Source: the human T2T-CHM13v2.0 reference genome, Homo sapiens. From it: a stretch of 64,000 bases of DNA. The DNA lies in assembly GCF_009914755.1 (NCBI RefSeq), contig NC_060928.1; one strand, given 5' to 3'. The notes under the pieces are model-generated. The model searched no databases. It saw only the letters and a list, made by a program, of their open reading frames with translations, and was not told where the DNA came from. This document shows, piece by piece, positions 1,222-22,328 of this stretch. Both the position numbers and the translations under genes were made by a program. Position 1 is the stretch's first letter, and the number at the start of each line of letters is the position of its first letter.

Positions 1222-3940
1222 GTGAGAGCCAGCCCCTCTTCCCACCCTGGATCTTAGGACCCCCATCGCAGGGTGGTGAGGGACCCCCCGCGATGCTTGG
1301 AGTAAGAGCCAGCCCCTCTTCCCCCTCTGGCTCTTAGGACCCCCATCGCAGGGGGGTGAGGCACCCCCCGCGATGCGGGGAGTAAGAGCCAGCCCCTCAT
1401 ACCCCCCGCCGGCTCTTAGGACCCACATCGCAGGGGGAGTGAGGCACCCCCCGCGATGCGGGGAGTAAGAGCCAGCCCCTCTTCCCCCCCTGGGTTTTAG
1501 GATCCGCAGTGGACTCACAGCCTGTTTATCACATTGTGAGTAATATCATCTCCCCTCTGGAAATTATGAACTATTTCACAGACAGGTGTACACCGTCTGT
1601 ATTGGTAACAATATCATCCTCGTTCTCCCTGAATATTAAGAACAGTATCACAGGGGTGTTTCTACTCCCTGCGATATTGGGTGTCATATCCTCCTCTCCC
1701 AAGTGGCAATTAGAGACAATATCAGTGGGGTCGTGTCCACCTTCTGTGATATTTAAAGTAAGATCATCCTCTTCCCTCCAGGATCATGGGAACAATATCC
1801 CTAGGGGGTGTCCACTTTCTGCGATATATGTAGTCATATCACCCCCTCCGCCTTGGAATATTACGAAGGACCATCTCACACGGGGGTGTACACTTCCTGC
1901 GATATTGGAAGTAATATCAACCTCTCTTCCTCTTAATATGAGGAAGAATATCACAGGGTGGGTGTACACCTCCTGCTCTATTATGGGGAGGCATATCTAT
2001 CTATTATGGGGAGTAATATCATCCTCTCCCTTTCAGGATATTAATAACAATATCCCAGGCTGGGTGAACACAGCCTACGATGCTGGAATTATTGTCACCC
2101 TCTCCCCTTCGGGATACTAGGAACAATATCACAGAAGAGGTGTACACTCCCTGCGATATTGGGAGTAATAGCATACGCTTCTTCCGTGAATATTAGGAGC
2201 AATATCACCGGGTGGCTGTACATTCATTGCTATGTTGGCAGTCATGTCATACTCCACCCTCTGGATATTAGGATCAGTGTCACAGGGTGAGTGTACACCT
2301 ACTGCGATATTAAAACTAATATCAAGTTCTCCATCCCTGGATATTAGGAACAATATCACAGGTAGGTGTACACCCCCTGCGGTATTAGGAGTAATAATAT
2401 TATGAATTATTAAACATCAGTCTCATTAATGATTATAAATGGTAATATTAATTTATAGTATAACTTTATTAGTCATTAATGATTATTTTAAAGATATGAT
2501 TGTGCATGATTAAAATTAATTCTTACTATTAGTGCCATTTTTAATAATATTAGTTATTAATATTAACATTAATCATTGTTTTATTACCAACATCACTTAT
2601 GATGGATTTAAGTAACATTAATTACTGATATTATTATTTTACTATTAATATTGATATTGCTATTATTAATTGTAATCATGAATATTTTTAATCCACATTA
2701 AGTTTTACTGTCTCCACTGTAGTTATTAATATCAATGATTACTATTAATTGTTATTATATTTATTAATATTAATAATTAATAAAACTGTTCCCGATATCC
2801 GTGGGGGAGAGGATATTACTCCCAATATCGCAGAAAGTGTACACCCCTCTATGATGTTACTCCTAATAGCCAGTGGGTAGAGGATGACATTATGGAAAAT
2901 ATCGCAGTGGGTGTACATCCCTTCGGTCATCTTGTTCCTAATATCCTGGGTGGGAGCGGATGTTACGACTCCCAAAATCGCAGTGGGCGGAGACCTCCCC
3001 CGTGATACTGTTCCGAACATCCAAAGGTGGAGAGGATGATATTTCTTCCAATTTCGCCGGGGGTGCCCACCACCCCTGTGATATTGATCCTAATATCCAG
3101 GGGGCGAGAGGATATTAGTCTGAATATTGCAGGAGGTGTACACTCCCTAGGGTTATTGTTCCTAATATCCAGGGACAGAGAGGATGATATCACTCCCAAT
3201 ATAGCAGGGGGTGTACACCCCTTGTGTGACATTGTTCCTAATAGGCAGCGGGGGAGAAGAAGATATCACCACGAATATCGCAGGGGGTGTACACCCCCTT
3301 GTGACATTGTTCCTTCTATCCTGGGAGGGAGAGGAAGATACTAGCGGCAATGTCGCAAGGGCTGTACACACCCACTGTGATATTGTTCCGAATATCTGGA
3401 GGGGGAGAAAATGATGTTACTTCCAATATCGCAGGGGGCTTACATGCTCCTGAGATATTGTTTCTCAGGTTCAGGGGGAGAGGATGATATTACTGCCAAT
3501 ATCTCAGGGGTTGTACACACCTCCCGTGATGCGGGGAGTAAGAGCCAGCCCCTCATACCCCCCGCCGGCTCTTAGGACCCACATCGCAGGGGGAGTGAGG
3601 CACCACCCGCGATGCTGGGAGTAAGAGCCAGCCCCTCTTCCACTCCTGGCTCTTAGGACCCCCATCGCAGGGGGCTGAGGCACCACCCACCATGCGGGGA
3701 GTAAGAGCCAGTTCCTCTTCCCCCACTGGCTCTTAGGACCCCCATCGCAGTGGGGTGAGGCACCCCCGCAATGCGGGGAGTAAGAGCCAGCCCCTCTTTC
3801 CCTCCCTGGCTCTTAGGACCCACATCGCAAAGGTGTGATTCACCCCCCGCGATGCGGGGAGTACAAGCCAGCCCCTCACCCCCCATGGCTCTTAGGACAC
3901 CCATCGCAGGGGGGTGAGGCAACCCCCGCGATGCGGGGAG
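1222..3940. repeat. SATR1/SATR2-type satellite, higher-order unit 1: GC variant 1222-1500, forward AT-type array 1540-2395, AT-rich core 2395-2785, inverted array 2785-3520, GC variant 3525-3940
   Basis: Tandem ~75 bp monomer CCCCTGCGATATTGGGAGTAATATCATCCTCTCCCCCCTGGATATTAGGAACAATATCACAGGGGGTGTACA and ~80 bp monomer GCGATGCGGGGAGTAAGAGCCAGCCCCTCTTCCCCCCTGGCTCTTAGGACCCCCATCGCAGGGGGGTGAGGCACCCC. Confidence 0.88.
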
Positions 3941-6590
3941 AGCTGAGACTGGGGTCCGGGCTGTTCCGGACTTCAACACTCACCCTTTGTCCCCACGCAG
4001 GGCTATGGCGTGTGCTCGGTGGAGCTGGAGCGGCTGGCTTACCTCCTCGTGGCTTACAGCCTGGACGCCTCAGTCGCCTCACTCCTGGGCCTGCTGGGCT
4101 TGTGGCTGCCACGCCCGGTTTCCCTCGTGGCTGGAGCAGGGGTGCACCTGCTGCTCACCTTCATCCTCTTTTTCTGGGCCCCTGTGTCTCGGGTCCTTCA
4201 ACACAGCTGGATCCTCTGTGTGGCAGCCGCCCTTTGGGGTGTGGGCAGCACCCTGAACAAAACTGGACTCAGCAGTGAGTATAGCTGTGGGCACTGGGAG
4301 GGCGGGGCAGGGTTCTTTATGGCTATCTGTGGGTGGTTGGCTAGACATAGACATCCCAGGGACAGATATGGGGTCCCATGGTCACATAGCGTCCTGTGGA
4401 CATGGCGGAGGCCGGTGGGGCTTCCTGTGGACACTCCAGGGGTGGAAGGGAAGTCTCATGGACACACTGGGGGCAGATGGGTAGGGCGTGGACACCCTGG
4501 AGACAGGTGTGGGGGTTCCACGTCATGGACATTCCGTTAATAACCCAGGGTGGGCACAGGGCCCCATCAACACTGGAGGGTCAGTGTGAAATCTCGTGGC
4601 TACACGGGGCAGGTGTGGGGCTCTGTGGACACCCCTTAGGGACAGTATGAAAAACACATCAGGGATTCTCCCTTTTCATACCAGGGGACAGAGCTTACCT
4701 TGTCATAGTTTTCGTGACACTTGGAGCATATGTTTTGGTCTCTGCCTCACGGAGCATGCGGTAGGAGCAAGTGGCCTGTTGTACATCCACAGCATAGATA
4801 CAGACATGGGACTTTGTATAGAGAGGAGCAGGCCTGCAGCCCCAACCCAATCTGCTCAGTACCAGAGTCCAGGCCCCAGGTCTGGGCTGCTGGGGAACAG
4901 GGCCCTGTTTGCAAAAGGCAGCGAGTGGGCCCATGTTCAGCTCCAGGATGCTCCCTGCCCACAGATGGGCACATGCAGTGACACACAGCTAACACACATG
5001 GGCACAGTCCTGCAGGGCATCCATGTCAGTGTCTGTTCTGATGGGCCGAAGCCATGAACAGATTTGAACGTCATCCTTGGGGGTGTGGAATGGCACAGGT
5101 CATGCCTGCTGCTGGTAGGACAGAGGCTGGCTGGGTGTCTCTGTCTGTAGCAGGGGCTGGAGCCTCATACTGCACCACAGTCTCTTGGCTGTTTTGCCCA
5201 AGGATAGCCAATTCTGGGCAGAGTCCAACCTGGGTATCTTGGACCCATGTTGTGCCCTGTCTGGTCATGGCATCCCCTTGCCCAGCTCCATATCCCATCT
5301 CCATAGGTGAACGCTGGGGTATCCTTGTCTCTTCATAGCAGCACTGTGGGGGTAAAGTCACCCTGCAGGGCCCCAAGACAGGAGTGTTCATGTCCTGAGT
5401 GTGTGGTGAAGGTGTTAATAGTGGCCCCTATGATTTGGCAGGTGCCATGCCCACTTTCTCACTTTAGAACTTCAGAACACAGCACACAATAGGCATAGGC
5501 TCATCTCACCATTGGGAAAAGCAGCTCTGGGGAGTTAAGTACCCAAATCACCCACAGAGCCAACGTTACAGTCCTGAGAACGAGTGTGCATCTTCTGACT
5601 CCCAATGCATTACTCTTGTTGCCCACCCTGGGAGGACTCACTGGAAAGGAAGCCCCCTCTCCATGCTTAGCTTCAGGTTTGATTTGCAGAGTTGGCAGCT
5701 GCAAACAGTTCGATCTCTCTAGTCCCGGCTGAGGAGGAGAAACAGCGCCTGCAAGCTTGGCACTGCACACCTGCGGTTGGGGACAGGACATGACTAAGCA
5801 CAGAGCTTTCTTCTTTTGAGGCCACGCATGTGGTGCAGAGCGGGACCACCTGCATCCACACAGCCCGGCGCACCTGCTCCTACTTCTGCTTAGCGTGTGA
5901 GCAGCTTGGTGACCAGGGTCTCCACCAGGGGGCAGGCCAGGACCGGCTTACAGCACTTTCTAGGGGTTCTCTGGTCCCGGGCTGGGACACATACAGGGCT
6001 TAGTAAAGTTCATAGATGGTAGCTAGGCAGCCCCAGGCCCCAGGTGACACCTCTCCCCTGCCTGCCCTGTACTGCCTGCCTGCAGCACTCCTGGGAATCT
6101 TGTACGAAGACAAGGAGAGACAGGACTTCATCTTCACCATCTACCACTGGTGGCAGGCTGTGGCCATCTTCACCGTGTACCTGGGCTCGAGCCTGCACAT
6201 GAAGGTGAGACTGGGCAGGGTTGGGGGCCCCATTCCCAATGACAGGTATTTCCTTAGCCCCTGCCCTGGCTTCACAGCTTCCTAAACGCCACCCCTTCCC
6301 AAGCCAGTCTCTGGGCCAAGGCCCCATTCCTGCAGCCCACTGGGTGGCCCCCAACTCAGCACCCCACTTACTGGACCACCTCCAGCCAGTCTCAGTTTGC
6401 CCACCTCTGAGGGGATTTGTGGGTGCATCACAGCCATCCTGTGGGCTGTTTGGTACCCGGTTGTCCAGATGTTGCGTCTGTCTCCCTTCATGGCCTGAAC
6501 GGGAGCAAGCTCCTCATGCTCTGCTCCCAAAAGATGGTGGCCGGTCTAGCAAGTCCCAGTTGCTAAACATTTTTTAAAAATAGAACTAAA

Positions 6591-6884
6591 GGCCGGGCAC
6601 GGTGGCTCACTCCTGTAATCCCAGCACTTTGTGAGGCCGAGGCGAGTGGATTGCCTGAGGTAGGGAGTTTGAAACCAGCCTGACCGACATGCTGAAACCT
6701 CGTCTCTTCTAAAAATACAAAAATTAGCCGGGCGTGGTGGCAGGTGGCTGCTACTCGGGAGGCTGAGGCAGGAGAATCGCTTGAACTGGGAGGCGGAGGT
6801 TGCAGTTAGCCGAGACGGGGCCTTGGCACTCCATCCAGCCTAAGCAACAAGAGCGAAAATCTGTCTCAAAATAAAAATAAAAAT
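6591..6884 (+). mobile_element. Alu (AluS-like)
   Basis: GGCCGGGCACGGTGGCTCA start, A tail, TSD AAAAATAGAACTAAA. Confidence 0.95.
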
Positions 6885-6913
6885 AAAAATAGAACTAAAA
6901 ATAGCAGGGAGTG

Positions 6914-7229
6914 GGCCGGGAGCAGTGGCTCATGCCTGTAATCCCAGCATTTTGAGACGCTGAGGTGGGGGTATCACCTGAGATCTGGAGTTTGAGACCG
7001 GCCTGGGTAACAGGCTGTGAAACCCTGTCTCTACTAAAAACACAAAAATTAGCTGGGCATGGTGGCACGTCCCTGTGATCCCAGCTTCTCTGGAGGCTGA
7101 GGCACAAGAATGGCTTGAACCTGGGAGATGGAGGTTGCAGTGAGCCAAGATTGTGCCACCGCACTTCAGCCTGGAGGACAGAGCGAGACTCTGTCTCCCA
7201 AAAAAAAAAGAAAAAAAGAAAAAAGAAAA
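6914..7229 (+). mobile_element. Alu
   Basis: Dimeric Alu consensus with A tail. Confidence 0.93.
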
Positions 7230-7239
7230 GCAGTGAGTG

Positions 7240-7556
7240 GGCTGGGCATGGTGGCTCACGCCTGTAATCCCAACACTTTGGGAGGCTGAGGCAGGAGGAT
7301 TGCTTGAGGCCAGGAGTTCAAGACCAGCCTGGGCAACATAGGAGACCCTGTCTCTACAAGAAATTTAAAAATTAGCTGGGTGTGGTGGCGCGTGCGTGTA
7401 GTTCCAGCTGCTTGGGAGACTGAGGTGGGAGGATGGCTTGAGCCTGGAAGATTGAGGCTGAAGTGAGCGTGCCACTGCGCTCCAGCAGTGGTTGGGGGAA
7501 GGGAGGGAGGGGGCGCGGTGGGGAAACGGAGCGACCGTGTCTGGAAAAAAGAAAAG
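7240..7556 (+). mobile_element. Alu (AluJ-like) with G-rich insertion near its 3' end
   Basis: GGAGGATTGCTTGAGG and GGAGGATGGCTTGAGCC diagnostic stretches. Confidence 0.9.
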
Positions 7557-7929
7557 AGCAGGAAGTATGCATACAGATATGTGTGTATGTACTGAGCTAT
7601 GGTGTGAAATCATTCCTGACTGCGGGTTATAGTCAAATCCCCATGAAGAGAATCACTACAGCCCACGGGTGTGTCAGGGACACAGTGTTGTGAGCCCTGG
7701 GAAGGCAGGGCCTGTGGCCAGCACTTTATCAACACTGGCACATGCACCCTATGAGGCAAAGGGATTTGCATTGTCCCCTTACAGAGTGGGACACTGAGGT
7801 CGCCAGGGGCATGGCGACTGTAAGGGACAGTGCTGGATGTGAGCCTCGCCTGCAGGAGGCGGTCCAGGAAGCGTGGGTGGAGCGGCTGGAGAAGTTGAGG
7901 GTCGCGTGGCCCGGGAGGCTCCCGGAGGA

Positions 7930-8960
7930 GGGAAGGGCCTATCTCAGCGAGGGGCATAGGCGGGGAAGGTGCGGGGCGAGGCGGCCGCGGGTCCCTGGCA
8001 TCCCTCTCCGTACACCCAGGCTAAGCTGGCGGTGCTGCTGGTGACGCTGGTGGCCGCCGCGGTCTCCTACCTGCGGATGCAGCAGAAGCTGCGGCGGGGC
8101 GTGGCCCCGCGCCAGCCCCGCATCCCGCGGCCCCAGCACAAGGTGCGCGGTTACCGCTACTTGGAGGAGGACAACTCGGACGAGAGCGACGCGGAGGGCG
8201 AGCATGGGGACGGCGCGGAGGAGGAGGCGCCGCCCCCGGTGCCCAGGCCTGGCCCCAAGCCCGCTGGACTCGGCCGCCGGCCCTGCCCCTACGAACAGGC
8301 GCAGGGGGGCGACGGGCCGGAGGAGCAGTGAGGGGCCGCCTGGTTCCCGGACTCAGCCTCCCTCCTCGCCGGCCTCAGTTTACCACGTCTTAGGTCGGGG
8401 GGACCCCCTCCGAGTCCCGTGCTGTCTTCAAAGGCCCCAGTCTCTCCTCCCCCACGTTGGGGACGCCCCTCCCAGAGCCCGGGTCACCTCCGGGCTTCCG
8501 AAGCCCCCTCTAAGGCGGAGTGGAGCCTTGGGAACCCCTCGGCCAAGCACAGGGGTTCGAAAATACAGCTGAAACCCTGCGGGCCCTTAGCAGGCGCCCC
8601 AGCGCCGGAGCAGGGTCAGGGTCTTCTTGCGACCCGGCCCCGCTCCAGATCCCCCCAGCTCTCGGCCTCGGACCCGGGCCGCGTGTGAGCGCGCTTTGCA
8701 CCTCCTATCCCCAGGGTCCGCCGAGAGCCACGATTTTTTACAGAAAATGAGCAATAAAGAGATTTTGTACCGTCCTGACTGGGGAGTCCCAGGCCGCGTG
8801 GGACGGAGCGCCCCTCGGATGCAAGCCCGTCTGGCCCAGCCTCTGGGCGCGGTGGTGACAGGCCCTGACCTAGAGGGACCGCGGGGTGTGGGGAGTGCGG
8901 AGCCCTACTGGGGCGGGGCGAGGTGTCCGTAGGCCCCGCCCACCAGCCCTTCCTCCCTCC
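7930..8960. promoter_or_regulatory. CpG island over the UNC93B1 last exon and 3' end
   Basis: Very high GC content with dense unmutated CpG. Confidence 0.75.
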
Positions 8961-10680
8961 TGAGGCCCCGCCCCCCATACCTGCCTGCCTTTGCCAGCCC
9001 CAGCCAGGAGAAGGGAGTGGCGGAGCGGCTGGCAGAGACAGAGGAGGGTGTGACGGCGTTGCTGGCCCCCCATGGGTCCAGAGGGCGAGACAGACTCTGG
9101 AGGCACACCCTCCACGTGCCTGTGTAGGCATCCTCGGCCCTCCAGCGACCACCCCCACGTCGGACAGGGTCCACTTCCAAGCCACGGTGGGGTCACCCTG
9201 TGCCCAGTAGGGGCCTTGGAAGTGGTGGTTGGAGGCCAGGTACGCTCGGTTACTACCCTTTCCCGGCTACAGCCTCAGCTGCGATGCCCACGAGAAACAG
9301 GCTGGTGGAGGGGCAGACCCCCTACAAGACCTGAAGGTGCCGTTCCTCCACCCGCTCTTCTTGTGGCCAGAGGAGAGGGACACCCCCGCCATGAAGAGCT
9401 CTGAACAGTTGGGTGAGGACAAGTGGGGGCCGTGGGAGGGCCATGGAGCCCCCAGCTGCACCCCAGCAGGCCCGGGGTTGGCCCACACCATTCCTCACTC
9501 CCCACAGCCTCTCTTCCCCTGACTTTGGCGAGACCCTCTTCCGTACCTCCAGGCTCCATGCCTGCCTCAGCATAGCTCTATGGATTCTCCCAGCCCTAAA
9601 CTGGCCCCATCTCTCCTCTCTGCCCTCATGTGAGTTTGGTTCTTGAAGCCTCTAGTGGGCCCTGGGGCCAGACTCTGTGGCCTTGGACAGGGAGTCTCCC
9701 ATATGAGCCACAGGTTCCTTCTCTGTTGAGTGTGTGAGGGAACATGTTGGAGCCCTTAGTGTGGTGGCTGCAAGCACCCCAGGCCCTGTAAGAAACACAA
9801 AAGGGTGCGGTGGGAGACTTGACATTTTCTAAATCTGGGAGGGAACGCTGCCTTCCTCACGCCGACCTTCAGTGAAAAGCAGACTCAGAAGCGGTCCCGA
9901 GGTGCCACCGTAAGCTGGGTGAAGGCCAGCACTGTGTGCTTCCAGTTCCCCCTCAGCATCTGTAGATTGAGTGTTCTCTGGAGGTGGCTGGCGACATCCT
10001 CCTGGCAGCTTCCAGCAAAACCAGTCGGAGTTGGGCAAACTGAAGCTCGGATGATTCACCTCTGAATGGAGGGCAAGGTGATATTTGGAAGGGTGTTGGC
10101 CCCTGGGATGCTGGGCAAACGGGGAGCGGGTGCCTGGATAGTGGGCCTACAGCTCTTCCCAGTTCTGAGTCAATTCCATTGTCCATGGTGCCAAGGAACA
10201 GAGGCTCTGATGTTGAGGAGACTTGAAGGTGATCCAGGCACATAGAGTGGCCACTCGGGGGTTTGGCTCCTGGCTGTGCTCTTCCTACCTGGGCATTTCC
10301 CATGAGAAGGCTTCACAGGCCACCTGGCTGCTCCTGGCACATGGAGAATGCCCAGATGGTGACATGTGCCAGACAACACATATTTGCACCTGATAGGCCA
10401 CACACATGCAACATGCAAACACACGTGGCGGGTAACACCTGTGACAGACACTACATGACAACGCACGTGCACACATGATGGGAAACACATATCACAGGCC
10501 GTGCAACAGGAAACACACATCACAGGCTGTGCGACGGGAAACACAGCGCAGGCAGTGCGACGGGCCCTGGCAGCAAGCTCAGCAGGCTGGCTCTTTTCGA
10601 GCAGGAGAAGAGCTCATTGTAAGAGATGACACTGGCGTAGGTGGCACCTCCCCTGTCTCCATCACCCTCGGATAAGGTGA

Positions 10681-11120
<440 letters not shown>

Positions 11121-11276
11121 TGATTTTTCAATTATGTGATTCCAAGAATCTCCAGTCCAAGATTTTCCCTATCTTTAAGTTCTCAGTAGCAGGTTAGATA
11201 ACCTGAGAAGTCTCCCTCTTCAAGACACCTAGAAATGCTGGGTAAGAAACAAATGTCCTTTTAACTATAGAGCTGA

Positions 11277-11732
<456 letters not shown>

Positions 11733-12005: not shown

Positions 12006-12294
<289 letters not shown>

Positions 12295-12569
12295 GTTGCC
12301 TTGGCTTAGTGGTACCCTGGGGCCCCTGGAAAAGCCAAATAGAAAACCTCTCTAGGTGGCTCCCTCAAATCTGGCCACCCAGGATTCCCCACATAAAGCC
12401 CCTCTGAAGCTGAGCTCACGATCCAAAATTACAGAACACACAGGAAACACATCACCGCGAGAAAAGGCAACAGACATACAAAAGAGCAGGATTCGACACC
12501 CGCTCCAAATACCCCCAGCTAGGAGAGAGAAGCTGTCCAACAGGTATGTGAGATAGGCAGCTTCTATAA

Positions 12570-13471
<902 letters not shown>

Positions 13472-16400
13472 CAGCCCCTCTCCCCCGCTGGCTCTTAGGA
13501 CCCCCATCGCAGGGGGTGAGGCACCCCCCGCGATGCGGGGAGTAAGAGCCAGCCCCTCTTCCCCCCCTGGTTTTTAGGATCCGCGGTGGACTCAGCCTGT
13601 TTACCATATTGTGAGCAATATCATCTCCCTCTCTGGAGATTATGAACTGTTTCACAGACGGGTGTACACCCTCGGTGTACAGAGGGTGTACACCCGTCTG
13701 TATTGGGAGTAATATCATCCTCTTCCTCCCTGAATATTAAGAAGAGTATCACAGGGGTGTTTCCACTCCCTCGGTTATCGCGTGTCATAACCTCCTCTCC
13801 CACGTGGCAATTAGAAACATTATCGGTGGGGGCGTGTCCACCTTCTGTGATATTGAAAGTAATATCATCCTCTTCCCTCCAGGATCATGGGAAAAATATC
13901 CCTGGGGGGTGTCCACTTTCTGCCATATAGGTAGTCATATCACCCCCTCAGCCTTGGAATATTATGAAGGACCATCTCACACGGGGGTGTATACTTCCTG
14001 CGATATTGGGAGTAATATCAACCTCTCGGCCTCTGAATATTAGGAAGAATATCACAGGGTGGGTGTACACCTCGTGCTCTATTATGGGGAGTCATATCTA
14101 TCTATTATGGGGAGTAATATCATCCTCTCCCTTTCAGGATATTAATAACAATTTCACAGGCTGGGTGAACACAGCCTGCGATGCTGGAATTATTATCACC
14201 CTCTCTCCCTCGGGATACTAGGAAGAATATCACAGAAGAGGTGTACACTCCCTGCGATATTGGGAGTAATTTCATACGCTTCTTCCGTGAATATTAGGAG
14301 CGATATCACCGCGTGGCTGTACCTTGATTGCTATGTTGGCAGTCATGTCATACTCTACCCGCTGGGTATTAGGATCGGTGTCACAGGGTGAGCGTAGACC
14401 TACTGCAGTATGAAAACTAATATCATGCTCTCCATCCCTGGATATTAGGAACAATATCACAGGTAGGTGTACACCCCCTGTGGTATTAGCAGTAATAATA
14501 TTCTGAATTATTAAACATCAGTCTTATAAATAATCAATGGTAATATTAATTAACAGTATAACGTTATTAATCATTAGTGATTATTTTCTAGATATGATTA
14601 TGCATATTAAAATTAATTATTAATATTAATGTCACTTTTAATATTAGTTATTAATCTTAATATTAATTATTGCTTTATTACCAACATCACTTATGATTGA
14701 TTGAAGTAACATTAGTGATACCACTATTTTATTATTAATAGTGATATTGCTATTATTAATAGTAACCATTAATATTTTTCATCCGTACTGTTTTAATGTC
14801 TCTACTGTAATTGTTAATATTGATGATTACTATTAATTGTTATTATATCTATTAATATTAATAATTAATAGAACTGTTCCCGATATCCGTGGGGGAGAGG
14901 ATATTACTCCCAATATCGCAGAAAGTGTATACCCCTCTATGATGTTACTCCTAATAGCCGGGGGGTAGAGGATGATATTATTGAAAATAGCGCAGTGGGT
15001 GTACATCCCTTCGGTTATCTTGTTCCTAATATCCTGGGTGGGAGCGGATGATATGACTCCCAATATCGCAGGGGGCGGAGACCTCCCCCGTGATACTGTC
15101 CCTAACATCCAAAGGTGGAGAGGATGATATTTCTTCCAATTTCGCCGGGGGTGCACACCAACCTTGTGATATTGATCCTAATATCCAGGGGGAGAGAGGA
15201 TGGTATTAGTTTGAATATTGCAGGATGTGTACACTCCCTAGTGATATTGTTCCTAATATCCAGGGACGGAGAGGATGATATCACTCCCAATATTGCCGGG
15301 GTTGTACACCCCTTGTGTGACATTGCTCCTAAAGGGCAGCGGGGGAGAGGAAGATATTACAGCCAATATCGCAGGGGGTGTACACCCTCTTGTGACATTC
15401 CTCCTTCTATCCTGGGAAGGAGAGGAAGATACTAGCGGCAATGTCGCAGGGGCTGTACACACCCACTGTGATATTGTTCCGAATATCCGGAGGGGGAGAA
15501 AATGATGTTACTTCCAATATCGCAGGGGGTGTACATCCTCCTGTGATATTGTTTCTTATATTCAGGGGGAGAGGATGATATTACTCCCAATATCGCAGGG
15601 GTTGTACACACCTCCTGCGATGCGGGGAGTAAGAGTCAGCCCCTCTCCCCCCCTGGCTCTTAGGAGCCCCATCGCAGGGGGTTGAGGCCCCACCCCGGGT
15701 ACGGGGAGTAAGAGCCAGCCCCTATCCCCCCTGGCTCTTAGGACCCCCATCGCAAGGGGGTGAGGCCCCCGCTATGCGGGCAGTCATATCACCCCCCTCT
15801 GGATATGACGATTCACGTCGCAGGGGGGCGGGCGCCCCCCGCGATGCGGGGAGTCATATCACTCCCCCCCTGGATATGAAGATCTACAGTGGTCACACAG
15901 CGTGTTCACGTTATTGTCAGTAATATCTTCTCCGCCTCTGGAAATTACCAACTATGTCACAGACGAGTGCACATCCTCTGCGCTCTTTGGAGTAATAGCA
16001 TCCTCTTTCCCCTTGATATTAAGAACAATATCACAGGAGTGTTTTTACCCCTAGGGGCATTCCGTGTAGTATCATCCTCTCCCACGTTGAAATTAGGGAC
16101 AATATTACTGGGGGCGTGTCCACCCCGTGCGATATTGAAAGTAACATCATCCTCTTCTCTCCTGGATCATGGGAACCATATCACTGGGGTTGTGTACACT
16201 TTCTGCGGTATTGGGAGTAAGATCATCCTCTCCGCCTTGGAATATTAAGGACCATATCACAGTGGGGTTGTACACACCCTGTGCTGTGAAGAAGAGTATT
16301 ATCATCCCCTGCCCTGCACACTGGAAAAAATATCACAGAGTGGGTGTACACCTCCTGCGATGGGGGTGGTGATATCATCTTCTCTTCTTCTGGATAATAG

Positions 16401-17330
16401 CAACAATAGTACACGGGTTTGTACACTTTCTGTGATATTGGGAGTAATATCAACCTCTCCACCTTTGAATATTAAGAACAATATCACAGACTGGATGTAC
16501 ACCCCTTGCGATATTGGGAGTCATATCAGCCTCTCCTCTCCATGGATATTAGGAATAGTATCCCAGGATGGGTGTACACCTCCTGCTGTATGGGGAGTCA
16601 TATCGTCCTGTCACTTCCTGGCTGCTAGGAACAATATCAGAGGGTGGGTGTACACAGCCTGCGATATTGCAAGTACTACCACCCTCTCCCCCTCCGGATA
16701 TTAGGAACAATGTCACGGAAGGGTTGTACACTTCCTGAGATACTGGGAGTAATAGCATTCTCTTCTTCCGGGAATATTAGGAGGAATATCACCGGGTGGA
16801 TGCACACCCACTATCTTGGGAGTAACGTCCTACGCCACCCCCTGGAGATGATATTCAGATCAATATCACCGGGTGGGGGTACACCTACTGCGATATTGAA
16901 CGTCATGTCATGCTCTCTCCCTCCCTGGACTTTAGGAACAATATCACAGGTGGGTGTACACCCACTGAGGTATTAGGGATAATATTCTTATTAATTCTTC
17001 CTCATTTATTAGCATGAATATGTATTACCAATATTAATATTAATATTAAGAAATCATTGCTAAAAATAGTGTTCAGATTATTAAAATTAATGTTAATTAT
17101 TAGGAGCTAATATGACAGTTTTCTAATGAATAAGATCAATATCACTCTTTAAGACCAGGAGTCATTAATCATTAATATTCATCATTTATTGTTAATGTGA
17201 GTATAACTCTTTAATATGAATTATCATTATTATCGGTATTGATTTTAAGAATTATATGATCAGTTATTAATATTGACAATTATCAGTATCAATTAATAAT
17301 TGAGATTATTAATTGTGGTAAGTAACATTG
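13472..17330. repeat. SATR-type satellite, higher-order units 2 (13578-15880) and 3 (15881-17330, truncated after its AT core)
   Basis: Collinear with 1501-3560; the landmark GATCCGCAGTGGACTCA recurs in variant form at 13578 and 15881; AT cores at ~14490-14870 and ~16980-17320. Confidence 0.9.
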
Positions 17331-17336
17331 CGCCAT

Positions 17337-18395
17337 TCCACCCCTTCCTCGGCAGCTCGTTTACGACCCAAAACGGGGATCCAAATGCCCCTGAGAGAGC
17401 AGCGGCATACTGGGAGAGAGGAGGATGCTCACGTGGTGGAGAGGCGTGTTTTTGTGTAAAAGCGCTTCACCTCTGCCGACCTTCTCAACCGGGAAAACAA
17501 TACGCCGTCCTAGAGCGAAAAGCCGCAAGCCCTAATTGATTTGCTCCAAACTGTTATCCAGACCCACAACCCCACCTGGGCTGATCGTCACCGGTTGCTC
17601 ATGTTACTCTTTAAGAGAGATGAAAGGCGAAAGGCGGAGAGGGCTCCAAGCAGCAACTAAGTGGCTAGAGGAACATGCACCAGCTGATTATCAAAACCCC
17701 CAAGAGTATGGAAGGACCCAGTTACCAGGAAACCACCCCCAGTTGGGCCCACATGAAAGAGAGGATATGCAAAGGCTAAACCGAGACAGGGAAGCGCTCT
17801 TGGAAGGATTCAAGAGGGGAGCTCAGAAGGCCACAAACGTTAACAAGGTCTCTGAGGTCATTCAGGGAAAAGAAGAAAGTCCAGCACAATTTTACCAGAG
17901 ACTGTGAGGCCTATGATATGTATACTCCCCTTGATCCCAATAACCCTGAAAATCAGCGCATGATTCACATGGCTTTAGTCTGTCAAAGAGCGGAAGACGT
18001 TAGAAGAAAACTGCAGAAGCAGGCTGGGCTTGCAGGGATGAATACATAACCTTGATGAGAAATAGCTAAGCAGGTGTTTGTAAACAGGGATGCAGTAAGC
18101 CGCGAGGGAAAGCGCAAAGAGAATGAAGGTCAGGCCTGGTGAAACGCTGACCTGTTTGTTAGCTGCAGTAATCAGAGCTGTCCCCCCAAAGAAGCAAGGG
18201 AAGGGGGGCCTTGGGAAAGAAACTCAGCTTGGCTGTCCGAGTTTGCAGCGTAACCAGTGTGCTTATTGTAAAGAAATAGGACAGTGGAAGAACAAATGCC
18301 TTCAGCTCAAAAGTAAACAAGGTGACTTAGAGCAGGAGGCCCCGGACAAGGAGGAAGGGGCCCGGCTCAACATGGCAGAAGGGTTATTGGACTGA
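17337..18395 (+). pseudogene. gag: Defective retroviral gag (capsid and nucleocapsid)
   Basis: KATNVNKVSEVIQGKEESPAQFYQRL major-homology region; zinc knuckle CAYCKEIGQWKNKC (His replaced by Gln); frameshifts; TGA-GGG-AGA stop in frame with pro. Confidence 0.9.
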
Positions 18396-18437
18396 GGGAG
18401 ACCGGGCTAAAGTGTCCCCAAAGAGCCTCTGGTCAGA

Positions 18438-18797
18438 ATGACAGTCGAGGGTGGAGACATTGATTTTCTTGTAGATACCGGTGCTGAACATTCGCTAGTA
18501 ACTGCCCTGGTCGCCCCCTTATCCAGAAAGACTATTAACGTCACCGGAGCCACGGGGGTTTCAGCAAAGCAAGCTTTCTGCTTGCCTGGGACTTGCAGTG
18601 TAGGAGGACATCAAGTGATTCATCAGTTTTTGTACATGCCTGACTGTCCCTTGCCCTTGTTGGGAAGGGACTTGCTTAGCAAGCTGAGAGCTGCTCTCTC
18701 TTTGACAGAACACAGCTCTTTGCTGCTAAAGTTACCCGCCACGGGAGTCATTATGACCCTTACCGTCCCCCGAGAGGAGGAATGGAGACTTTTGTGA
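18438..18797 (+). pseudogene. pro: Retroviral aspartic protease domain
   Basis: FLVDTGAEHS active site, GATG flap and PLLGRDLL; flanked by in-frame stops. Confidence 0.92.
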
Positions 18798-18799
18798 AC

Positions 18800-21182
18800 T
18801 GAGCCGGGCCAAGAGAGAAGACCAGCTCTGGCTAAGCGGTGGCCAAGAGTACGGGCAGAAGACAACCCTCCAGGATTGGCCAGTTAAGACTGGGGCCCAG
18901 CCGCTTAGGCAAAAACAGGACCCGGTCCCCAGAGAAGCTCTTCAAGGTATCCAGGTCCATCTTAAGCACCTAAGAACTTTTGGTATGATAGTTCCTTGTC
19001 AGTCTCCACGGTATACTCCCCTCCTGCCTGTTCCCAAGCCATGGACCAAGGACTACAGGCCGGGACAGGATTCGCGCTTGCTTAGTCAAGCTATCCTGAC
19101 ATTCCATCCAACAGTACCTAGCCCATCCACATTGTTGGGGTTGCTGCCAGCTGACGACAGCTGGTTCACCTGCTTGGACCTGAGAGACGCTTTCTTTCCT
19201 ATCAGATTAGCCCCTGAGAGCCAGAAGCTGTTTGCCTTTCAGTGGAAAGATCCGGAGTCAGGTGTCACTACTCAGTACACTTGGACCAGGCTTCCCAAAG
19301 GGTTCAAGAACTCCCCCACCATCTTCGGTGAGGCGTTGGCTCGAGACCTCCAGAAGTTTCCCACCAGAGACATAGGCTGCGCGTTGCTCCGCTAGGTGGA
19401 TGAGCTTTTGCTGGGACATCCCACGGAAGTCGGGTGCGCCAAGGGAATGGATTACCCTACGTCGACACCTGGAGGACTGTGGGTGTAAGGTGTCCAAGAA
19501 GAAAGCTCAGATCTGCCGACAGCAGGTGCGTTCCTTGGGATTTACTATCCGACAGGGGGAACGCAGCCCGGGATCAGAAAGAAAGCAGGTCATTTGCAAT
19601 CTAGCAGAGACTAAGAGCAGAAGGCAGGTGAGAGAATTCTCAGGAGCTGTGGGGTTTTGTAGACTGCGGATCCCAAACTTTGCGGTATTAGCCAAGACTT
19701 TTTATGAGGTCACCAAGGGGGCGGGGACCGGGAACTTTTTGAATGGGGATCCCAACAACAGCAAGTCTTTCATGAGTTAAAGGAGAAACTTATGTCAGCC
19801 CCAGCCCTGGGGCTACCCGATCTGACAAAGCCTTCTCCATTGTATGCATCAGAGAGAGAAAAGATGGCAGCTGGACTTTGAACCCAAACTGTGGGGCCCT
19901 GGCCGAGGCCGGTGGCCTGCCTCTCTCTACAACTAGACGGGGTTTCTAAAGGATGGCCCCCCTGTTGGAAGGCCTTGGCAGCAACTGCCCTGCGAGTACA
20001 AGAAGCAAATAAGCTGACTCTTGGGCAGAACCTGAAGAGAAAGGCCGCCCATGCTGTGGTGACTTTAATGAATACTAAAGGACATCATTGGCTAACGAAT
20101 GCCAGACTCACCAAGTACCAAATTTTGCTCTGTGAAAATCCCCGTATAACCATTGAAATTTGTAACAGCCTACATCCCGCCACCTTGCTCCCGGTATCAG
20201 AGAGCCCTGTCGAGTCTGGTTGTGTAGAAGTGTTGGACACAATTGACTCTAGCAGACCTGACCTCCAGGGCCAGCCTTGGCCATCAGTAGACTGGGAACT
20301 ATACATGGATGGGAGCAGCTTCTTCAACCCCCAAGGAGAGAGAGGTGCAGGGTATGCAGTGATAACCCTGGACACTGTTGTTGAAGGCAGATCATTGCCC
20401 CAGGCCACTTCAGCCCAGAAAGCTGAACTCATTGCTTTCATTCGGGCCTTAGAACTCAGTGAGTATGAGACTGTCAACATTTACGCTGACTCTCGGTATG
20501 TCTTTTGAACCCTTCAAGTGCATGGAGCGTGATAGAAAGAAAAGGGCCTATTGAACTCTGGGGGAAAAGGCATAAAATATCAACAGGAAATCTTGCAATG
20601 ATTAGAAACAGTATGGAAACCCCACAAGGTGGCAGTTATATATTGCAGAGGACACCAGCGAGCTTCCACCTTGCTGGGTTTGGGGAATTCCCGCGCTGAC
20701 TCAGAGGCTCGAAAAGCAGCATCTGTCCCCTTCTGGGCATCAGTGCTCCCTCAAGCACCTGATCTTGGACCTACTTCTTCTAAAGAAGAAAAGGACTTTC
20801 TCCAAGTAGAGGGAAGGACAAGTGATGGAGGAAGGATGGATTCGGTTACCAGATGGGAGAGTAGCTGCGCCACAGCTGCTAGGAGCTGCAGTTGTACTGG
20901 CTGTGCAAGAAACCACCCATCGAGGTCAGGAGTCACTGGAAAAGTTGTTAGGCCGGTATTTCTACATCTCGCCTTTGTCAGCCCTTGCCAAAACCGTGAG
21001 GCAGCGATGTGTTACCTGCTGACAGCATGATGCGAGGCAAGGTCCAGCCATTCCGCCCGGCATACGAGCTTATGGAGCAGCCCCCTTTGAAGGTCTCCAC
21101 GTGGACTTCACAGAGATGCCAAAGTGTGGAGGTAACAAGTATGTACTAGTTCTTGGGCGTACCTACTCTGGGTGGGTGGAGG
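18800..21182 (+). pseudogene. pol: Defective pol (RT, RNase H, N-terminal integrase)
   Basis: LDLRDAFF and LPKGFKNSP; YVDD reads stop-VDE at 19393; RNase H YMDGSS, SAQKAELIA and NIYADSRY; integrase breaks off after DFTEMPKCGGNKYVLV...SGWVE. Confidence 0.93.
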
Positions 21183-21187
21183 TCTGG

Positions 21188-22325
21188 GTCTTCCTCCCCA
21201 AATCTGGATGTTAGCAACGAGATCACAGAGGGGGTGTACACACCCTGCGACATTGGAAGTAATATGATCCTCTCCCCACCTGGATACTGGGAAAGATACC
21301 ACAGCGCGGGTATACGTTTCCTACTCTGTTGCGAGTAATATCATTCTTTTCCTTTCTGGATATTAGGGAGAATATCACAGGGGTGCTGTACAATTACTTT
21401 GACATTGGGAGTAACATCATCCTCTATTTTCCTGGACATTGGGCACAAAAACACAAAAGGGTGTACAACCCCTGCGATATTGGGAGTAATAGCATACTCT
21501 CCATCCTTGGATGTTAGAAAACAATATCATCAGGGCTGAACACCCCCCGCGATAATGGGAGTCATGGTTACTCTTTCACAGGCCATTTGGAACAATATCA
21601 GAGGGGGTGTTTACACACAGGGGTGATGTACACCCCCTGTGATATTGGGCGTAACATGATTCTCTCCACCTCCGGATATTAAGAACAATATCCCGGCGAG
21701 ACGTGGTACACCCCCAGTGATATTGGGAATAATGTCATCCTCTCCTTCCCTGGATATTAGGAATAATATCACAGGGGGGTGTACACCTTCTGTGATATTA
21801 GAAGCAATATCATCCTCTCCCCCACTAGATATTAGAAAAAAAATCACTCACGGTGTACACCCACTGTGATATGAGGAGTAATATCTTCCTAGGGTATTAC
21901 GAATAATTTCACTGTCTGTACACACATGGTGTACACTCACTGTGATATTAGGAGTAATGTCTACCTAGTAGATAACAAATAACATCGCAGTGTGTACACC
22001 CACTTTGATATTAGCTGTAATATTTTTCTAAGTTGTTACAAATAAGATCACAGGGTGTACCAACATGGTGTACACTCACCGTGATATTAGGAGTCTTATC
22101 TCTGTAATATATTATGAATAATATCACAGGGTGTACACCCACTGTATTATTAGGAGTAATATCTCTGTAGGATATTACAATTAAGATCACAGGGTGTAGA
22201 GCCAGCGTGATATTAGGAGCAATATCTTTCTAGGATATTACAAATAATATCAGAGGGTGTACGCCCACTCTGCTGTCTGGAGCAATATCTCCCTAGGATA
22301 TCAAAAATCCTATCACAGGGTGTCC
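21188..22325 (+). repeat. SATR-type satellite, forward array grading into a shorter monomer variant
   Basis: Same GGTGTACACC-centred monomer; period 75 bp at 21706-21781. Confidence 0.88.
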
Positions 22326-22328
22326 AAT

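What the first reader, a model, noticed from the sequence alone, without database searches (positions are those of the whole stretch)
1222..22325. Satellite monomer is a structure-conserved double hairpin with compensatory changes across three sequence variants
Seen in sequence: the AT-type monomer pairs TAATATC with GATATTA and CTGCGATATTG with CAATATC(A/G)CAG. The GC-type monomer pairs TAAGAGCCAG with CTGGCTCTTA and GCGATG(C)GGG with CCCCCATCGC. A third variant at 15783-15809 pairs GTCATATC with GATATGAC. The AT and GC types both keep an unpaired purine-rich internal loop (GGAG opposite GGAA/GGAC), and all three keep a C/T-rich apical loop. The second dyad also co-varies: GGGTGTACACCC, GGGTG-AGG-CACCC and GGGGCG-GG-CGCCCC (15823-15840). 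The array can therefore fold in two alternative registers. Inference: multi-base compensatory substitution is not expected from neutral satellite drift. It points either to quasi-palindrome template-switch correction or to a selected ssDNA/RNA structure. I know the SATR family as an annotated repeat but am not aware of this covariation being described.
Basis: partly seen in the sequence, partly recalled or inferred. Interest (0 to 1): 0.8.

Follow-up and report, generated by a model that had tools for sequence, protein, structure and literature searches.

The report
Palindromic satellite repeat, no structure selection
This is the known SATR satellite that flanks a human duplication-prone element; each repeat unit is a double near-palindrome, and its AT-rich and GC-rich versions changed both halves of each palindrome together once or twice long ago, but the copies otherwise decay as unselected DNA.

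Summary
The sequence features are real. The 76-bp AT-type and 80-bp GC-type monomers are homologous. Both carry the same two dyads, hairpin A and hairpin B. Between the two consensus sequences, four base pairs changed on both sides and stayed complementary, and a 3-nt insertion lengthens stem A.

These changes map to only two internal branches of the monomer tree. All 15 differences are W->S. Under a W->S-restricted null, the chance of four or more compensated pairs is about 0.012.

I found no covariation anywhere else:
- 64 AT monomers of the window: none.
- 112 GC monomers from other chromosomes: none.
- 30 paralogous copies of an 11-monomer AT unit: measures equal the shuffles (263 pairs, covariation score 0.048 observed and shuffled).

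One-sided, stem-breaking changes outnumber compensated ones by tens to one. Stems evolve as fast as loops. RNAalifold predicts no consensus structure. Real AT monomers fold about as well as shuffled sequence (one of six folds better as RNA); one near-consensus GC monomer folds strongly and two of the other three GC-side monomers moderately.

Best reading: a known satellite (SATR1/SATR2 in the SATR-HERVE-SATR flank of a Xiao/DA duplicon) with an inherited quasi-palindromic monomer. New subfamilies arose by rare arm-to-arm templated change in a founder monomer, which was then amplified and decayed neutrally. A selected RNA or DNA structure is not supported. Interest is low to moderate.

The parts
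1221..1512 (+). GC-type 80-bp monomers (3 full copies plus 1 truncated); probably SATR2
   Evidence: TRF finds period 80, 3.5 copies, 89% matches. nhmmer GC profile E 3e-22 to 4e-12.
1539..2389 (+). AT-type 76-bp array, forward orientation (11 monomers); probably SATR1
   Evidence: nhmmer AT profile; sequence read.
2397..2786 (.). AT-rich spacer (18% GC) between the forward and inverted AT-type arrays
   Evidence: Composition. Only short imperfect inverted repeats, arms of 34 nt or less at 71-95% complementarity.
2787..3531 (-). AT-type 76-bp array, inverted orientation (about 9.5 monomers)
   Evidence: TRF period 76, 9.4 copies. nhmmer hits on the minus strand. Array-scale inverted repeats of 70-76% with 1539-2389.
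3496..3537 (.). Orientation-switch junction inside the hairpin-B palindrome. The left arm is AT-type (from the inverted array) and the right arm is GC-type (from the forward array).
   Evidence: Sequence read. Half-monomer hit 3496-3531(-) covering model positions 39-74, followed by a GC monomer at 3537. The same junction lies at 15587-15628.
3537..3938 (+). GC-type 80-bp monomers (5 copies), ending about 60 bp before the first UNC93B7 pseudogene exon
   Evidence: TRF period 80, 5.3 copies; covariance model R1 scores 88-94 bits.
13463..13590 (+). GC-type monomers (1 boundary copy plus 1 truncated); paralogue of 1221-1512
13614..14490 (+). AT-type array, forward; monomer-by-monomer paralogue of 1539-2389
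   Evidence: paralogue comparison.
14491..14880 (.). AT-rich spacer; paralogue of 2397-2786
14900..15621 (-). AT-type array, inverted; paralogue of 2787-3531
   Evidence: TRF period 76, 9.6 copies.
15628..15781 (+). GC-type monomers (2 copies)
15782..15918 (+). Third variant (2 copies). Hairpin A is AT-like with an A-T pair replaced by C-G. Hairpin B is GC-like with a GCG..CGC centre. It sits at the boundary between a GC block and an AT array.
   Evidence: Sequence. Fold of -19.5 kcal/mol, z -2.5. Groups with the GC clade on the tree.
15919..16977 (+). AT-type array, forward (14 monomers). Positions 16140-16977 form an 838-bp, 11-monomer unit present at 30 or more loci genome-wide at 81-100% identity.
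21182..21876 (+). AT-type array, forward (about 9 monomers), starting where the retroviral fragment ends
21877..22330 (+). Short variant of the AT-type (63-bp and 76-bp units). The loop of hairpin A is cut to about 7 nt, and the stem is GTAATATC/GATATTAC in the best copy.
   Evidence: TRF period 63, 6.2 copies. Fold of 22152-22214 gives z -3.6; 22089-22151 gives z -0.95.

Best explanation
This is the known SATR1/SATR2-type satellite in the SATR-HERVE-SATR flank of a Xiao/DA core duplicon.

The monomer is an inherited double quasi-palindrome made of two about 38-bp hairpin-like sub-repeats that share AATATC...GATATT arms. The GC-type is derived from the AT-type. It arose through a small number of old, concerted events in a founder monomer, in which one arm of a dyad was copied as its reverse complement from the other arm. 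The copying could have been intrastrand replication template switching in a quasi-palindrome. It could also have been gene conversion between monomers aligned in the inverted register, which the palindromic monomer and the adjacent inverted arrays allow. A strong W->S bias accompanied these events.

The founder was then amplified by unequal exchange and spread with the segmental duplication. After that, all monomers decayed without any constraint on pairing.

Shown here: the homology, the dyads, the both-arm changes on two branches, the lack of any within-family compensation or stem conservation, and one inverted-register junction inside hairpin B. Inferred: the copying mechanism and the W->S drive.
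For: 1. Homology and polarity.
- The AT and GC profiles hit each other collinearly.
- In the AT consensus the arms of hairpins A and B match each other at 8/10 and 9/11 positions. In the GC consensus they match at only 3/10 and 5/11. So the AT state is ancestral.
- AT monomers are 67% identical to each other, GC monomers 86%.

2. Concerted change.
- There are 15 consensus substitutions outside the centre, all W->S.
- Five pairs changed on both sides, and four of them stayed complementary. P = 3e-5 under the naive null and 0.012 under the W->S null.
- The same hexamer AATATC became AAGAGC in both arms of hairpin A but CCCATC in both arms of hairpin B. Sequence context alone therefore does not explain it.
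- A CAG insertion in the 5' arm of A pairs with a CTG present in both types.
- Two branches carry two or more compensated double events. The six slid controls give 0, 1, 0, 0, 0, 0 such branches.

3. No selection afterwards.
- AT type: 115 one-sided against 4 compensated changes in hairpin A, and 211 against 6 in hairpin B.
- GC type, 112 monomers: 176 one-sided and 7 two-sided in hairpin A (7.3 expected), none Watson-Crick compensated.
- 30 paralogues, 263 pairs: 76.5% paired observed and shuffled; covariation score 0.048 against 0.048, reached by 90 of 500 shuffles.
- 825 one-sided against 21 two-sided changes, with 24 expected.
- Paralogue differences are 8.6-9.6% in stems and 6.4% in the loop.
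- On the tree, 223 events go from paired to unpaired and 25 go the other way.
- The large GC arrays fixed two uncompensated T->G changes that break hairpin-B pairs.

4. Inverted-register exchange did happen. The junctions at 3496-3537 and 15587-15628 join an inverted AT monomer to a forward GC monomer at the homologous point of the hairpin-B palindrome.

5. No array of half-changed monomers exists. Monomers with a GC 5' arm and AT 3' arm: 0 genome-wide. Monomers with an AT 5' arm and GC 3' arm: 2; the one I read is a boundary monomer. Pure forms number 56 (GC) and 733 (AT).

6. The mechanism is established elsewhere (PMC8794818 and PMC5453318; I saw only the abstracts in the listing).
Against: - No direct trace of template switching. 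None of 148-217 mutation clusters in 30 paralogues creates an inverted match within 100-200 nt. The process, if real, was rare and old.
- Hairpin B of the GC type is not a clean copy: it has one bulged A and one bulged C, and one pair changed on both sides to C.C.
- The statistical case rests on two branches and is post hoc. Under a W->S-only null, P is only about 0.012.
- Templating does not explain why all 15 changes are W->S, nor why 9 of 15 are transversions.
- Every change also makes the hairpins more stable. Stem A goes from 7 to 10 bp, and the fold goes from -4 to -8 kcal/mol to -29.7 kcal/mol. That is what selection for a stronger hairpin would also give.
- No outgroup species was available here.
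Confidence: 0.5

Rival explanations
1. Structure-favoured amplification. Monomers that form stronger hairpins or cruciforms are more likely to be amplified or to found new arrays, for example through fold-back or hairpin-primed synthesis or replication stalling. Dyad symmetry would then be selected at the birth of each subfamily but not maintained afterwards.
For: - All 15 AT-to-GC changes are W->S. Twelve lie in stems and two more extend stems.
- One mismatch (A.C) becomes G-C, and stem A grows from 7 to 10 bp.
- The best GC monomer folds exactly as the double hairpin, at -29.7 kcal/mol with z -6.3.
- The third variant and the 63-bp variant also have tightened stems.
- The macaque preprint reports that the GC-rich SATR1v is the most expanded SATR family there (passages).
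Against: - The share of changes in stems (12 of 15) is what the distribution of W sites predicts: 25 of 33 W columns lie in stems.
- The largest human GC arrays carry two fixed changes that break hairpin-B pairs.
- The AT type, whose real monomers fold about as well as shuffles (one of six folds better as RNA), is by far the more abundant in human: 733 exact hairpin-A matches against 56 (folds in 37, 59).
- Nothing here tests amplification itself.
Confidence: 0.2
2. Directional W->S change alone (for example GC-biased gene conversion in a recombining array), with the complementary outcome arising by chance.
For: - All 15 substitutions are W->S and none is S->W.
- Given W->S on both sides of an A-T pair, half of the outcomes are complementary.
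- Under that null, P (four or more compensated) = 0.012 and P (five or more double changes) = 0.02. These are not extreme for a post hoc observation.
Against: - The same hexamer changed differently in hairpins A and B but identically within each hairpin.
- The 3-nt insertion is exactly complementary to the opposite arm.
- Transversions outnumber transitions, 9 to 6.
- Two branches carry two or more compensated events, against 0-1 in slid controls.
Confidence: 0.15
3. A functional structured RNA or single-stranded/cruciform DNA element whose pairing is maintained by ongoing selection.
For: - The dyads are far above slid controls at consensus level: 72% paired against 35-50%.
- A covariance model of the GC-type structure scores its 18 best AT monomers above a sequence-only model: 15.2-30.8 bits against 7.0-25.6.
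- hsa-mir-3683 is listed as SATR1-derived (PMC3059204, passage).
Against: - No covariation within the AT type, within the GC type or among the paralogues.
- Stems are not conserved.
- RNAalifold gives 0 pairs.
- Real AT monomers fold about as well as shuffles; one of six folds better as RNA.
- No Rfam family matches in the satellite. The only hit there is mir-786 at 25.5 bits against a gathering score of 93, E 0.15.
- In the model comparison, several AT monomers score lower with structure (for example 2821-2894: 6.1 against 18.6 bits). The two models are also not scored alike, one end-to-end and the other locally.
Confidence: 0.04
4. Palindromic binding sites of a dimeric DNA-binding protein, with both half-sites changing together when the specificity changed.
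For: - The arms are short inverted repeats of the kind bound by dimers.
- ZNF141 and ZBTB24 ChIP signal over SATR repeats is reported (passages).
Against: - The half-sites are not conserved within families.
- The proteins reported are multi-zinc-finger proteins, which do not need palindromes (my own knowledge).
- No binding motif was tested here.
Confidence: 0.03

Closest known systems
SATR1 / SATR2 satellites in the 'SES' (SATR-HERVE-SATR) flank of Xiao/DA core duplicons (PMC2700803 passage; PMC5088589 passages)
   Same: - Tandem satellite blocks on both sides of a broken retroviral gag-pro-pol fragment.
- They lie beside an OR7E pseudogene in 4p16 (hub annotation).
- The same blocks recur on many chromosomes at 80-96% identity.
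   Different: Nothing differs at the level of the element. The papers I read describe the repeats as breakpoint markers. They do not mention the dyads of the monomer. No Repbase or Dfam consensus was available to test it.
Macaque SATR1 / SATR1v / SATR2 mixed arrays (preprint 10.1101/2025.08.04.668424, passages)
   Same: The core unit has the same layout: a GC-rich variant array, an inverted SATR1 array, an AT-rich repeat, then a forward SATR1 array. That is the order seen here at 1221-3938 and 13463-15781. SATR1 is about 44% GC.
   Different: The macaque arrays are subtelomeric and greatly expanded, and SATR1v is 81% GC. The text has no occurrence of 'hairpin', 'secondary structure' or 'non-B'. 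'Palindromic' there refers to array-scale configuration.
Template-switch (quasi-palindrome) mutation that creates and maintains hairpins (PMC8794818 and PMC5453318; abstracts in the listing only)
   Same: Several nearby bases change at once so that two inverted arms stay or become complementary, including templated insertions that lengthen a stem.
   Different: Those papers infer events from polarised alignments of species. Here the inference rests on two consensus sequences in one genome, and a scan of recent mutation clusters found none.
Dyad-symmetric satellite DNA / non-B DNA at centromeres (PMC5889037; Tribolium macro-dyad satellites, PMC13081366; abstracts in the listing only)
   Same: A satellite monomer with short dyad symmetries able to form hairpins or cruciforms.
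   Different: SATR is not centromeric here. It is part of an interstitial segmental duplication. No evidence of structure formation in vivo was seen.
Palindromic AT-rich repeats (PATRRs) of recurrent translocations (PMC4940405; abstract in the listing only)
   Same: An AT-rich stretch flanked by inverted sequence, in a region known for rearrangement.
   Different: The AT-rich spacers (2397-2786 and 14491-14880) are not long near-perfect palindromes. Their arms are 34 nt or less at 71-95% complementarity.

Membership tests
SATR1/SATR2 satellite of the Xiao/DA duplicon | Tandem array of a short monomer | tested here: met
   TRF finds periods of 76-80 bp, with 3.5-11.7 copies per block. 84 monomer hits at E <= 1e-3.
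SATR1/SATR2 satellite of the Xiao/DA duplicon | SATR blocks flank a HERV fragment and lie beside an OR7E gene or pseudogene (SES structure) | tested here: met
   Gag_p30, RVP, RVT_1 and RNase_H fragments lie at 17536-20505 between the satellite blocks. OR7E83P lies at 23088-24252 (hub annotation). The SES structure is described in PMC2700803 and PMC5088589.
SATR1/SATR2 satellite of the Xiao/DA duplicon | Match to the curated Repbase/Dfam consensus | not testable with these tools
   No repeat library is held. The names are inferred from GC content (about 44%) and from SATR2 blocks of about 377 bp.
Structured RNA family (Rfam-type) | Significant covariation supporting the helices | tested here: not met
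   A1: 13 pairs with two-sided change, against a shuffled mean of 17.6. A2: all measures equal the shuffles. Tree-based: 7 events against 3-9 in controls. RNAalifold gives 0 pairs.
Structured RNA family (Rfam-type) | Match to a curated family | tested here: not met
   No hit in the satellite at E <= 0.1. The only hit is mir-786 at 25.5 bits against a gathering score of 93.
Structured RNA family (Rfam-type) | Fold more stable than shuffled sequence | tested here: inconclusive
   GC monomers: z -6.3, -1.3, -3.5 as DNA and -4.9, -0.8, -2.8 as RNA. Six AT monomers: z +0.9 to -1.9 as DNA and +0.7 to -2.7 as RNA.
Quasi-palindrome template-switch product | A multi-base change that keeps or raises complementarity to a nearby inverted copy | tested here: met
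   Four pairs compensated on two branches. A CAG insertion complements CTG. An A.C mismatch becomes G-C.
Quasi-palindrome template-switch product | Polarised by an outgroup so that the change is derived and simultaneous | tested here: inconclusive
   Only internal polarity is available: the sub-repeat arms are alike in the AT type and unlike in the GC type. No half-changed arrays exist in the genome. No other species was available.
Quasi-palindrome template-switch product | Recurrent events of the same kind in related copies | tested here: not met
   None of 148-217 mutation clusters in 30 paralogues creates an inverted match.
PATRR | A near-perfect AT-rich palindrome of several hundred bases | tested here: not met
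   The longest arms are 33-34 nt at 71-82% complementarity.

The most novel reading that the evidence does not exclude
Dyad symmetry in this satellite is kept by the amplification machinery itself and serves no function for the cell. New SATR subfamilies would be born when a monomer's arms are re-copied from each other. Hairpin-stabilised founders such as the GC type would be preferentially amplified. The hairpin-B palindrome would act as a strand-switch point that flips array orientation. The resulting inverted arrays would help make Xiao/DA duplicons recurrent breakpoints of 4p16/8p23 rearrangements.
Probability: 0.15. Interest if true: 0.55.

Novelty: new member of a known kind. Interest (0 to 1): 0.25.

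Why it matters
The satellite is already annotated and its genomic role as a breakpoint marker of the Xiao/DA duplicon is in print.

New here is the monomer-level picture. Two related subfamilies differ almost only in their palindrome arms and changed both arms together, while hundreds of later mutations ignore the pairing.

That makes it a clean natural example of apparent 'compensatory' substitution in a hairpin arising without selection on structure. It is a caution for covariation-based calls of structured RNA in repeats.

If the inverted-register junction in hairpin B reflects a general strand-switch property, it could bear on why these duplicons sit at inversion and translocation breakpoints. 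Nothing here shows that.

Tried and rejected
1. Selected RNA/DNA structure. Rejected on four independent data sets, on RNAalifold and on the folds of real AT monomers.

2. Non-homology of the AT and GC types. Rejected.

3. Stem-specific conservation. The AT family diverges 16-17% in stems and 22-25% in loops and linkers. This follows base composition: A and T columns diverge 12-21% everywhere, while most C and G column classes diverge 22-29%. Recent paralogue differences are not lower in stems.

4. Recent template switching. Scanned with flanks of 2-5 nt and a search range of 100-200 nt. There were 0 inverted matches. Direct matches were 0-1 for the new sequence and 2-6 for the old. The scan needs exact matches, so it could miss short or imperfect events.

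5. Half-changed intermediates. Exact-pattern searches of the genome found 0 and 2. The one I read (L061) is the first monomer of a GC block next to a degenerate AT array.

6. Inner-dyad 'covariation' GTG..CAC against GCG..CGC, and the pair 57-82 (G-C in 11 monomers, A-U in 10). Both involve CpG/TpG/CpA and can arise from CpG decay on both arms. I count them as weak evidence.

7. Covariance models. The model with structure scores the 18 best AT monomers higher than the sequence-only model, but scores others lower. The two models differ in weighting and in end-to-end against local scoring, so this is not a clean test.

8. PATRR-like palindrome in the AT-rich spacer: not found.

9. Earlier findings of this scan were not open.

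10. The script stopped with an index error after hairpin B at shift +2. The inner dyad was therefore counted only later.


Full report
**What is there**

The window holds five satellite blocks between 1221 and 22330.
- TRF finds 80-bp arrays at 1221-1502 (3.5 copies, 89% matches) and 3518-3940 (5.3 copies).
- It finds 76-bp arrays at 2812-3518, 14900-15621 and 15929-16962.
- It finds a 63-bp array at 21923-22323.

Profile searches give 84 non-overlapping monomer hits at E <= 1e-3: 14 GC-type and 70 AT-type. AT-type arrays occur in both orientations. The order is:
- GC(+) 1221-1512
- AT(+) 1539-2389
- an 18%-GC spacer at 2397-2786
- AT(-) 2787-3531
- GC(+) 3537-3938

This order is repeated at 13463-15781. 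Broken retroviral gag, protease, RT and RNase H fragments lie at 17536-20505, between satellite blocks. OR7E83P follows (hub annotation).

This is the 'SES' (SATR-HERVE-SATR) flank of a Xiao/DA core duplicon, as described in PMC2700803 and PMC5088589 (passages). A macaque T2T preprint describes the same layout of GC-rich variant, inverted SATR1, AT-rich repeat and forward SATR1 (passages). The names SATR1 for the AT type and SATR2 for the GC type are inferred. No repeat library was available to check them.

The AT consensus reads AGTAATATCA-(C/T loop)-GGATATTAGGAACAATATCACAGGG..GGTGTACACC..CCTGCGATATTGGG. The GC consensus reads AGTAAGAGCCAG-(C/T loop)-CTGGCTCTTAGGACCCCCATCGCAGGGGGGTGAGGCACCCCCCGCGATGCGGGG.

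The two types are homologous and collinear.
- The AT profile hits 7 GC monomers at E 1.7e-5 to 6e-3.
- The GC profile hits AT monomers at E down to 4e-7, in register.

Both types carry hairpin A, closed by the C/T-rich loop. Both carry hairpin B, a long palindrome centred on GTAC in the AT type and on an AGG loop in the GC type.

For the tool count I used alignment A1: 62 AT monomers, 11 GC monomers and the third variant, 74 rows in all. Two AT monomers with long insertions (21557-21649 and 21877-21952) were left out. In A1, 72.1% of 1855 cells are paired, against 35-50% when the partner column is slid by 1-3.

A tandem repeat of a unit that is symmetric about one centre always has a second centre half a period away.

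**The AT/GC split is compensated, but it is one or two events**

Outside the centre of hairpin B the two consensus sequences differ at 15 aligned positions.
- All 15 are W->S.
- 12 are in stems. This matches the share of W columns that lie in stems (25 of 33), so there is no enrichment.
- Five pairs changed on both sides. Four stayed complementary (T-A to G-C twice in hairpin A; A-T to C-G and T-A to C-G in hairpin B). One became C.C, next to a bulge.

The chance of four or more compensated pairs is 3e-5 if 15 changes fall anywhere. It is 0.012 if they are restricted to W sites and to W->S changes.

Three further details argue for copying between arms and against parallel mutation.
- The hexamer AATATC occurs four times per AT monomer, twice as its reverse complement. 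It became AAGAGC in both arms of hairpin A and CCCATC in both arms of hairpin B.
- A CAG inserted in the 5' arm of A pairs with a CTG that both types already have, lengthening the stem from 7 to 10 bp.
- Nine of the 15 changes are transversions.

The AT state is ancestral.
- In the AT consensus the arms of A and B match each other at 8/10 and 9/11 positions. In the GC consensus they match at 3/10 and 5/11.
- AT monomers are 67% identical to one another, GC monomers 86%.

On a tree of the 74 monomers the GC type plus the third variant form one clade. The hairpin-B changes map to its stem branch and the hairpin-A changes to the GC branch. Two branches carry two or more compensated double events, against 0, 1, 0, 0, 0, 0 in six slid controls.

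**Everything else decays**

Within 64 AT monomers (the alignment):
- Hairpin A has 441 cells, 78% paired, with 115 one-sided and 15 two-sided changes. Four of the two-sided changes are still paired. Slid controls give 1-5.
- The outer part of hairpin B has 703 cells, with 211 one-sided and 16 two-sided changes, six still paired. Slid controls give 12 and 12.
- Eleven AT monomers carry GTCATATC with no compensating G. Only the third variant has the G.

I also collected 127 distinct GC monomers from other chromosomes. The 112 of the large-array type show 176 one-sided and 7 two-sided changes in hairpin A (7.3 expected), none Watson-Crick compensated. The figures are similar in hairpin B.

The consensus of those large arrays differs from the window's GC type at four sites. 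Two T->G changes break hairpin-B pairs without compensation. One change makes a G.T pair. One creates a C-G pair.

Thirty paralogous copies of the 838-bp, 11-monomer AT unit (81-100% identity) give 263 pairs and 7578 cells.
- 76.5% are paired, against 76.5% shuffled.
- 16 pairs changed on both sides, against 16.0 shuffled.
- The covariation score is 0.048 against 0.048, reached by 90 of 500 shuffles.
- My own count is 825 one-sided and 21 two-sided changes (24 expected), with 10 still paired against 4-12 in slid controls.

Parsimony on the A1 tree gives 366 one-sided events: 223 from paired to unpaired and 25 the other way. It gives 7 compensated two-sided events, against 3-9 in slid controls.

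Stems are not protected.
- Divergence from the AT consensus is 16-17% in stems and 22-25% elsewhere. This tracks base composition.
- Differences between the two duplicated blocks of the window are 8.6-9.6% in stems and 6.4% in the loop.
- Those blocks show 58 one-sided differences, 4 two-sided and 0 compensated.

**Folding and RNA tests**

- The best GC monomer (1301-1380) folds exactly as the double hairpin: -29.7 kcal/mol with z -6.3 as DNA, and -48.9 kcal/mol with z -4.9 as RNA.
- Two other GC monomers give z -1.3 and -3.5 as DNA. The third variant gives z -2.5.
- Six real AT monomers give z from +0.9 to -1.9 as DNA and +0.7 to -2.7 as RNA.
- RNAalifold predicts no consensus pair on A1.
- Rfam has nothing in the satellite beyond a chance-level mir-786 hit. 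The other hits are Alu-derived.
- A covariance model of the GC structure scores its 18 best AT monomers higher than a sequence-only model (15.2-30.8 against 7.0-25.6 bits). It scores others lower (for example 2821-2894: 6.1 against 18.6 bits). The two models are not scored alike, so this shows only that the better-preserved AT monomers fit the shared architecture.

**Mechanism**

The pattern is a few old multi-base, arm-symmetric changes followed by unconstrained decay. It fits templated copying between arms in a founder monomer, followed by amplification.

Two routes are possible.
- Replication template switching within a quasi-palindrome. This mechanism is shown elsewhere to create and maintain hairpins (PMC8794818 and PMC5453318, abstracts only).
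- Gene conversion between monomers aligned in the inverted register.

The second route has one direct trace here. At 3496-3537, and again at 15587-15628, an inverted AT monomer is joined to a forward GC monomer at the homologous point of the hairpin-B palindrome. The same array order in macaque suggests that this junction is old.

Against frequent templating, none of 148-217 recent mutation clusters creates an inverted match. Half-changed monomers do not exist as arrays:
- GC 5' arm with AT 3' arm: 0 matches genome-wide.
- AT 5' arm with GC 3' arm: 2 matches. The one I read is a boundary monomer.
- Pure forms: 56 (GC) and 733 (AT).

I cannot separate templating from a birth-time advantage of more stable hairpins, because every change also strengthens the stems. 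I cannot explain the W->S bias either.

**What is in print**

- Thirty-one papers in the library mention SATR1 or SATR2.
- Three papers hold both SATR1 and 'hairpin', and three hold SATR1 and 'inverted repeat'; two of each were listed. Those I read do not describe the monomer's dyads or their co-variation.
- One paper lists hsa-mir-3683 as SATR1-derived.
- The macaque preprint uses 'palindromic' only at array scale. It has no occurrence of 'hairpin', 'secondary structure' or 'non-B'.
- Supplements of the preprints are closed. Figure S17 of 10.1101/2025.11.03.686349 holds ssDNA data for SATR1/SATR2 that I could not see.

**Verdict**

This is a known satellite. The dyads and the compensated AT/GC difference are real. 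There is no evidence for a selected structure. The interest lies mainly in the example it gives of compensation-like change without structural selection.

Noticed in passing
window 3496-3537 and 15587-15628: The switch from the inverted AT-type array to the forward GC-type array falls exactly inside the hairpin-B palindrome. The left arm is AT-type and the right arm GC-type. This looks like a strand-switch or inverted-register recombination point.
   Followed up: partly
window 17536-20505: Broken endogenous-retrovirus fragments on the + strand between satellite blocks: Gag_p30, retroviral protease, RT and RNase H in separate short frames. This fits the SATR-HERVE-SATR flank of Xiao/DA elements. 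I only observed them.
   Followed up: partly
window 16140-16977; loci L031-L060: The 11-monomer (838-bp) AT-type unit is a fixed higher-order block, present at 30 or more loci on at least 13 chromosomes-numbered contigs at 81-100% identity. The satellite therefore spreads mainly as part of the segmental duplication and not by local turnover.
   Followed up: partly
loci L005-L030 (contigs C9, C13, C12, C7, C3): Multi-kb arrays of an 80-bp GC-type monomer that starts ACTGAGAGCCAG and ends GCGAGGCGGGG. It differs from the window's GC type at four fixed sites, two of which break hairpin-B pairs. This may correspond to the 'SATR1v' of the macaque preprint. I did not test that.
   Followed up: partly
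window 2397-2786 and 14491-14880: AT-rich (18-24% GC) spacers of about 390 bp sit between the forward and inverted AT-type arrays. They hold many short imperfect inverted repeats but no long palindrome.
   Followed up: yes
alignment A2 columns 121/158 (window about 16253 and 16288): One stepwise compensation among the paralogues: A-T in 11 copies, C.T in 11 and C-G in 7. It is the only clear case among 263 pairs and is in line with the shuffles.
   Followed up: partly
window 3537-3938 with 4000-4274: The GC-type block (62-70% GC, CpG-rich) ends about 60 bp upstream of the first annotated UNC93B7 pseudogene exon. Whether it acts as a CpG-island-like promoter was not examined.
   Followed up: no
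GC-type monomers, minus strand (for example window 1301-1380): The minus strand carries four G-runs of 4-6 bases within one monomer, and the plus strand four C-runs. G-quadruplex or i-motif folding is therefore an alternative non-B form to the hairpins. The loops (4-19 nt) are longer than the classical motif allows.
   Followed up: no
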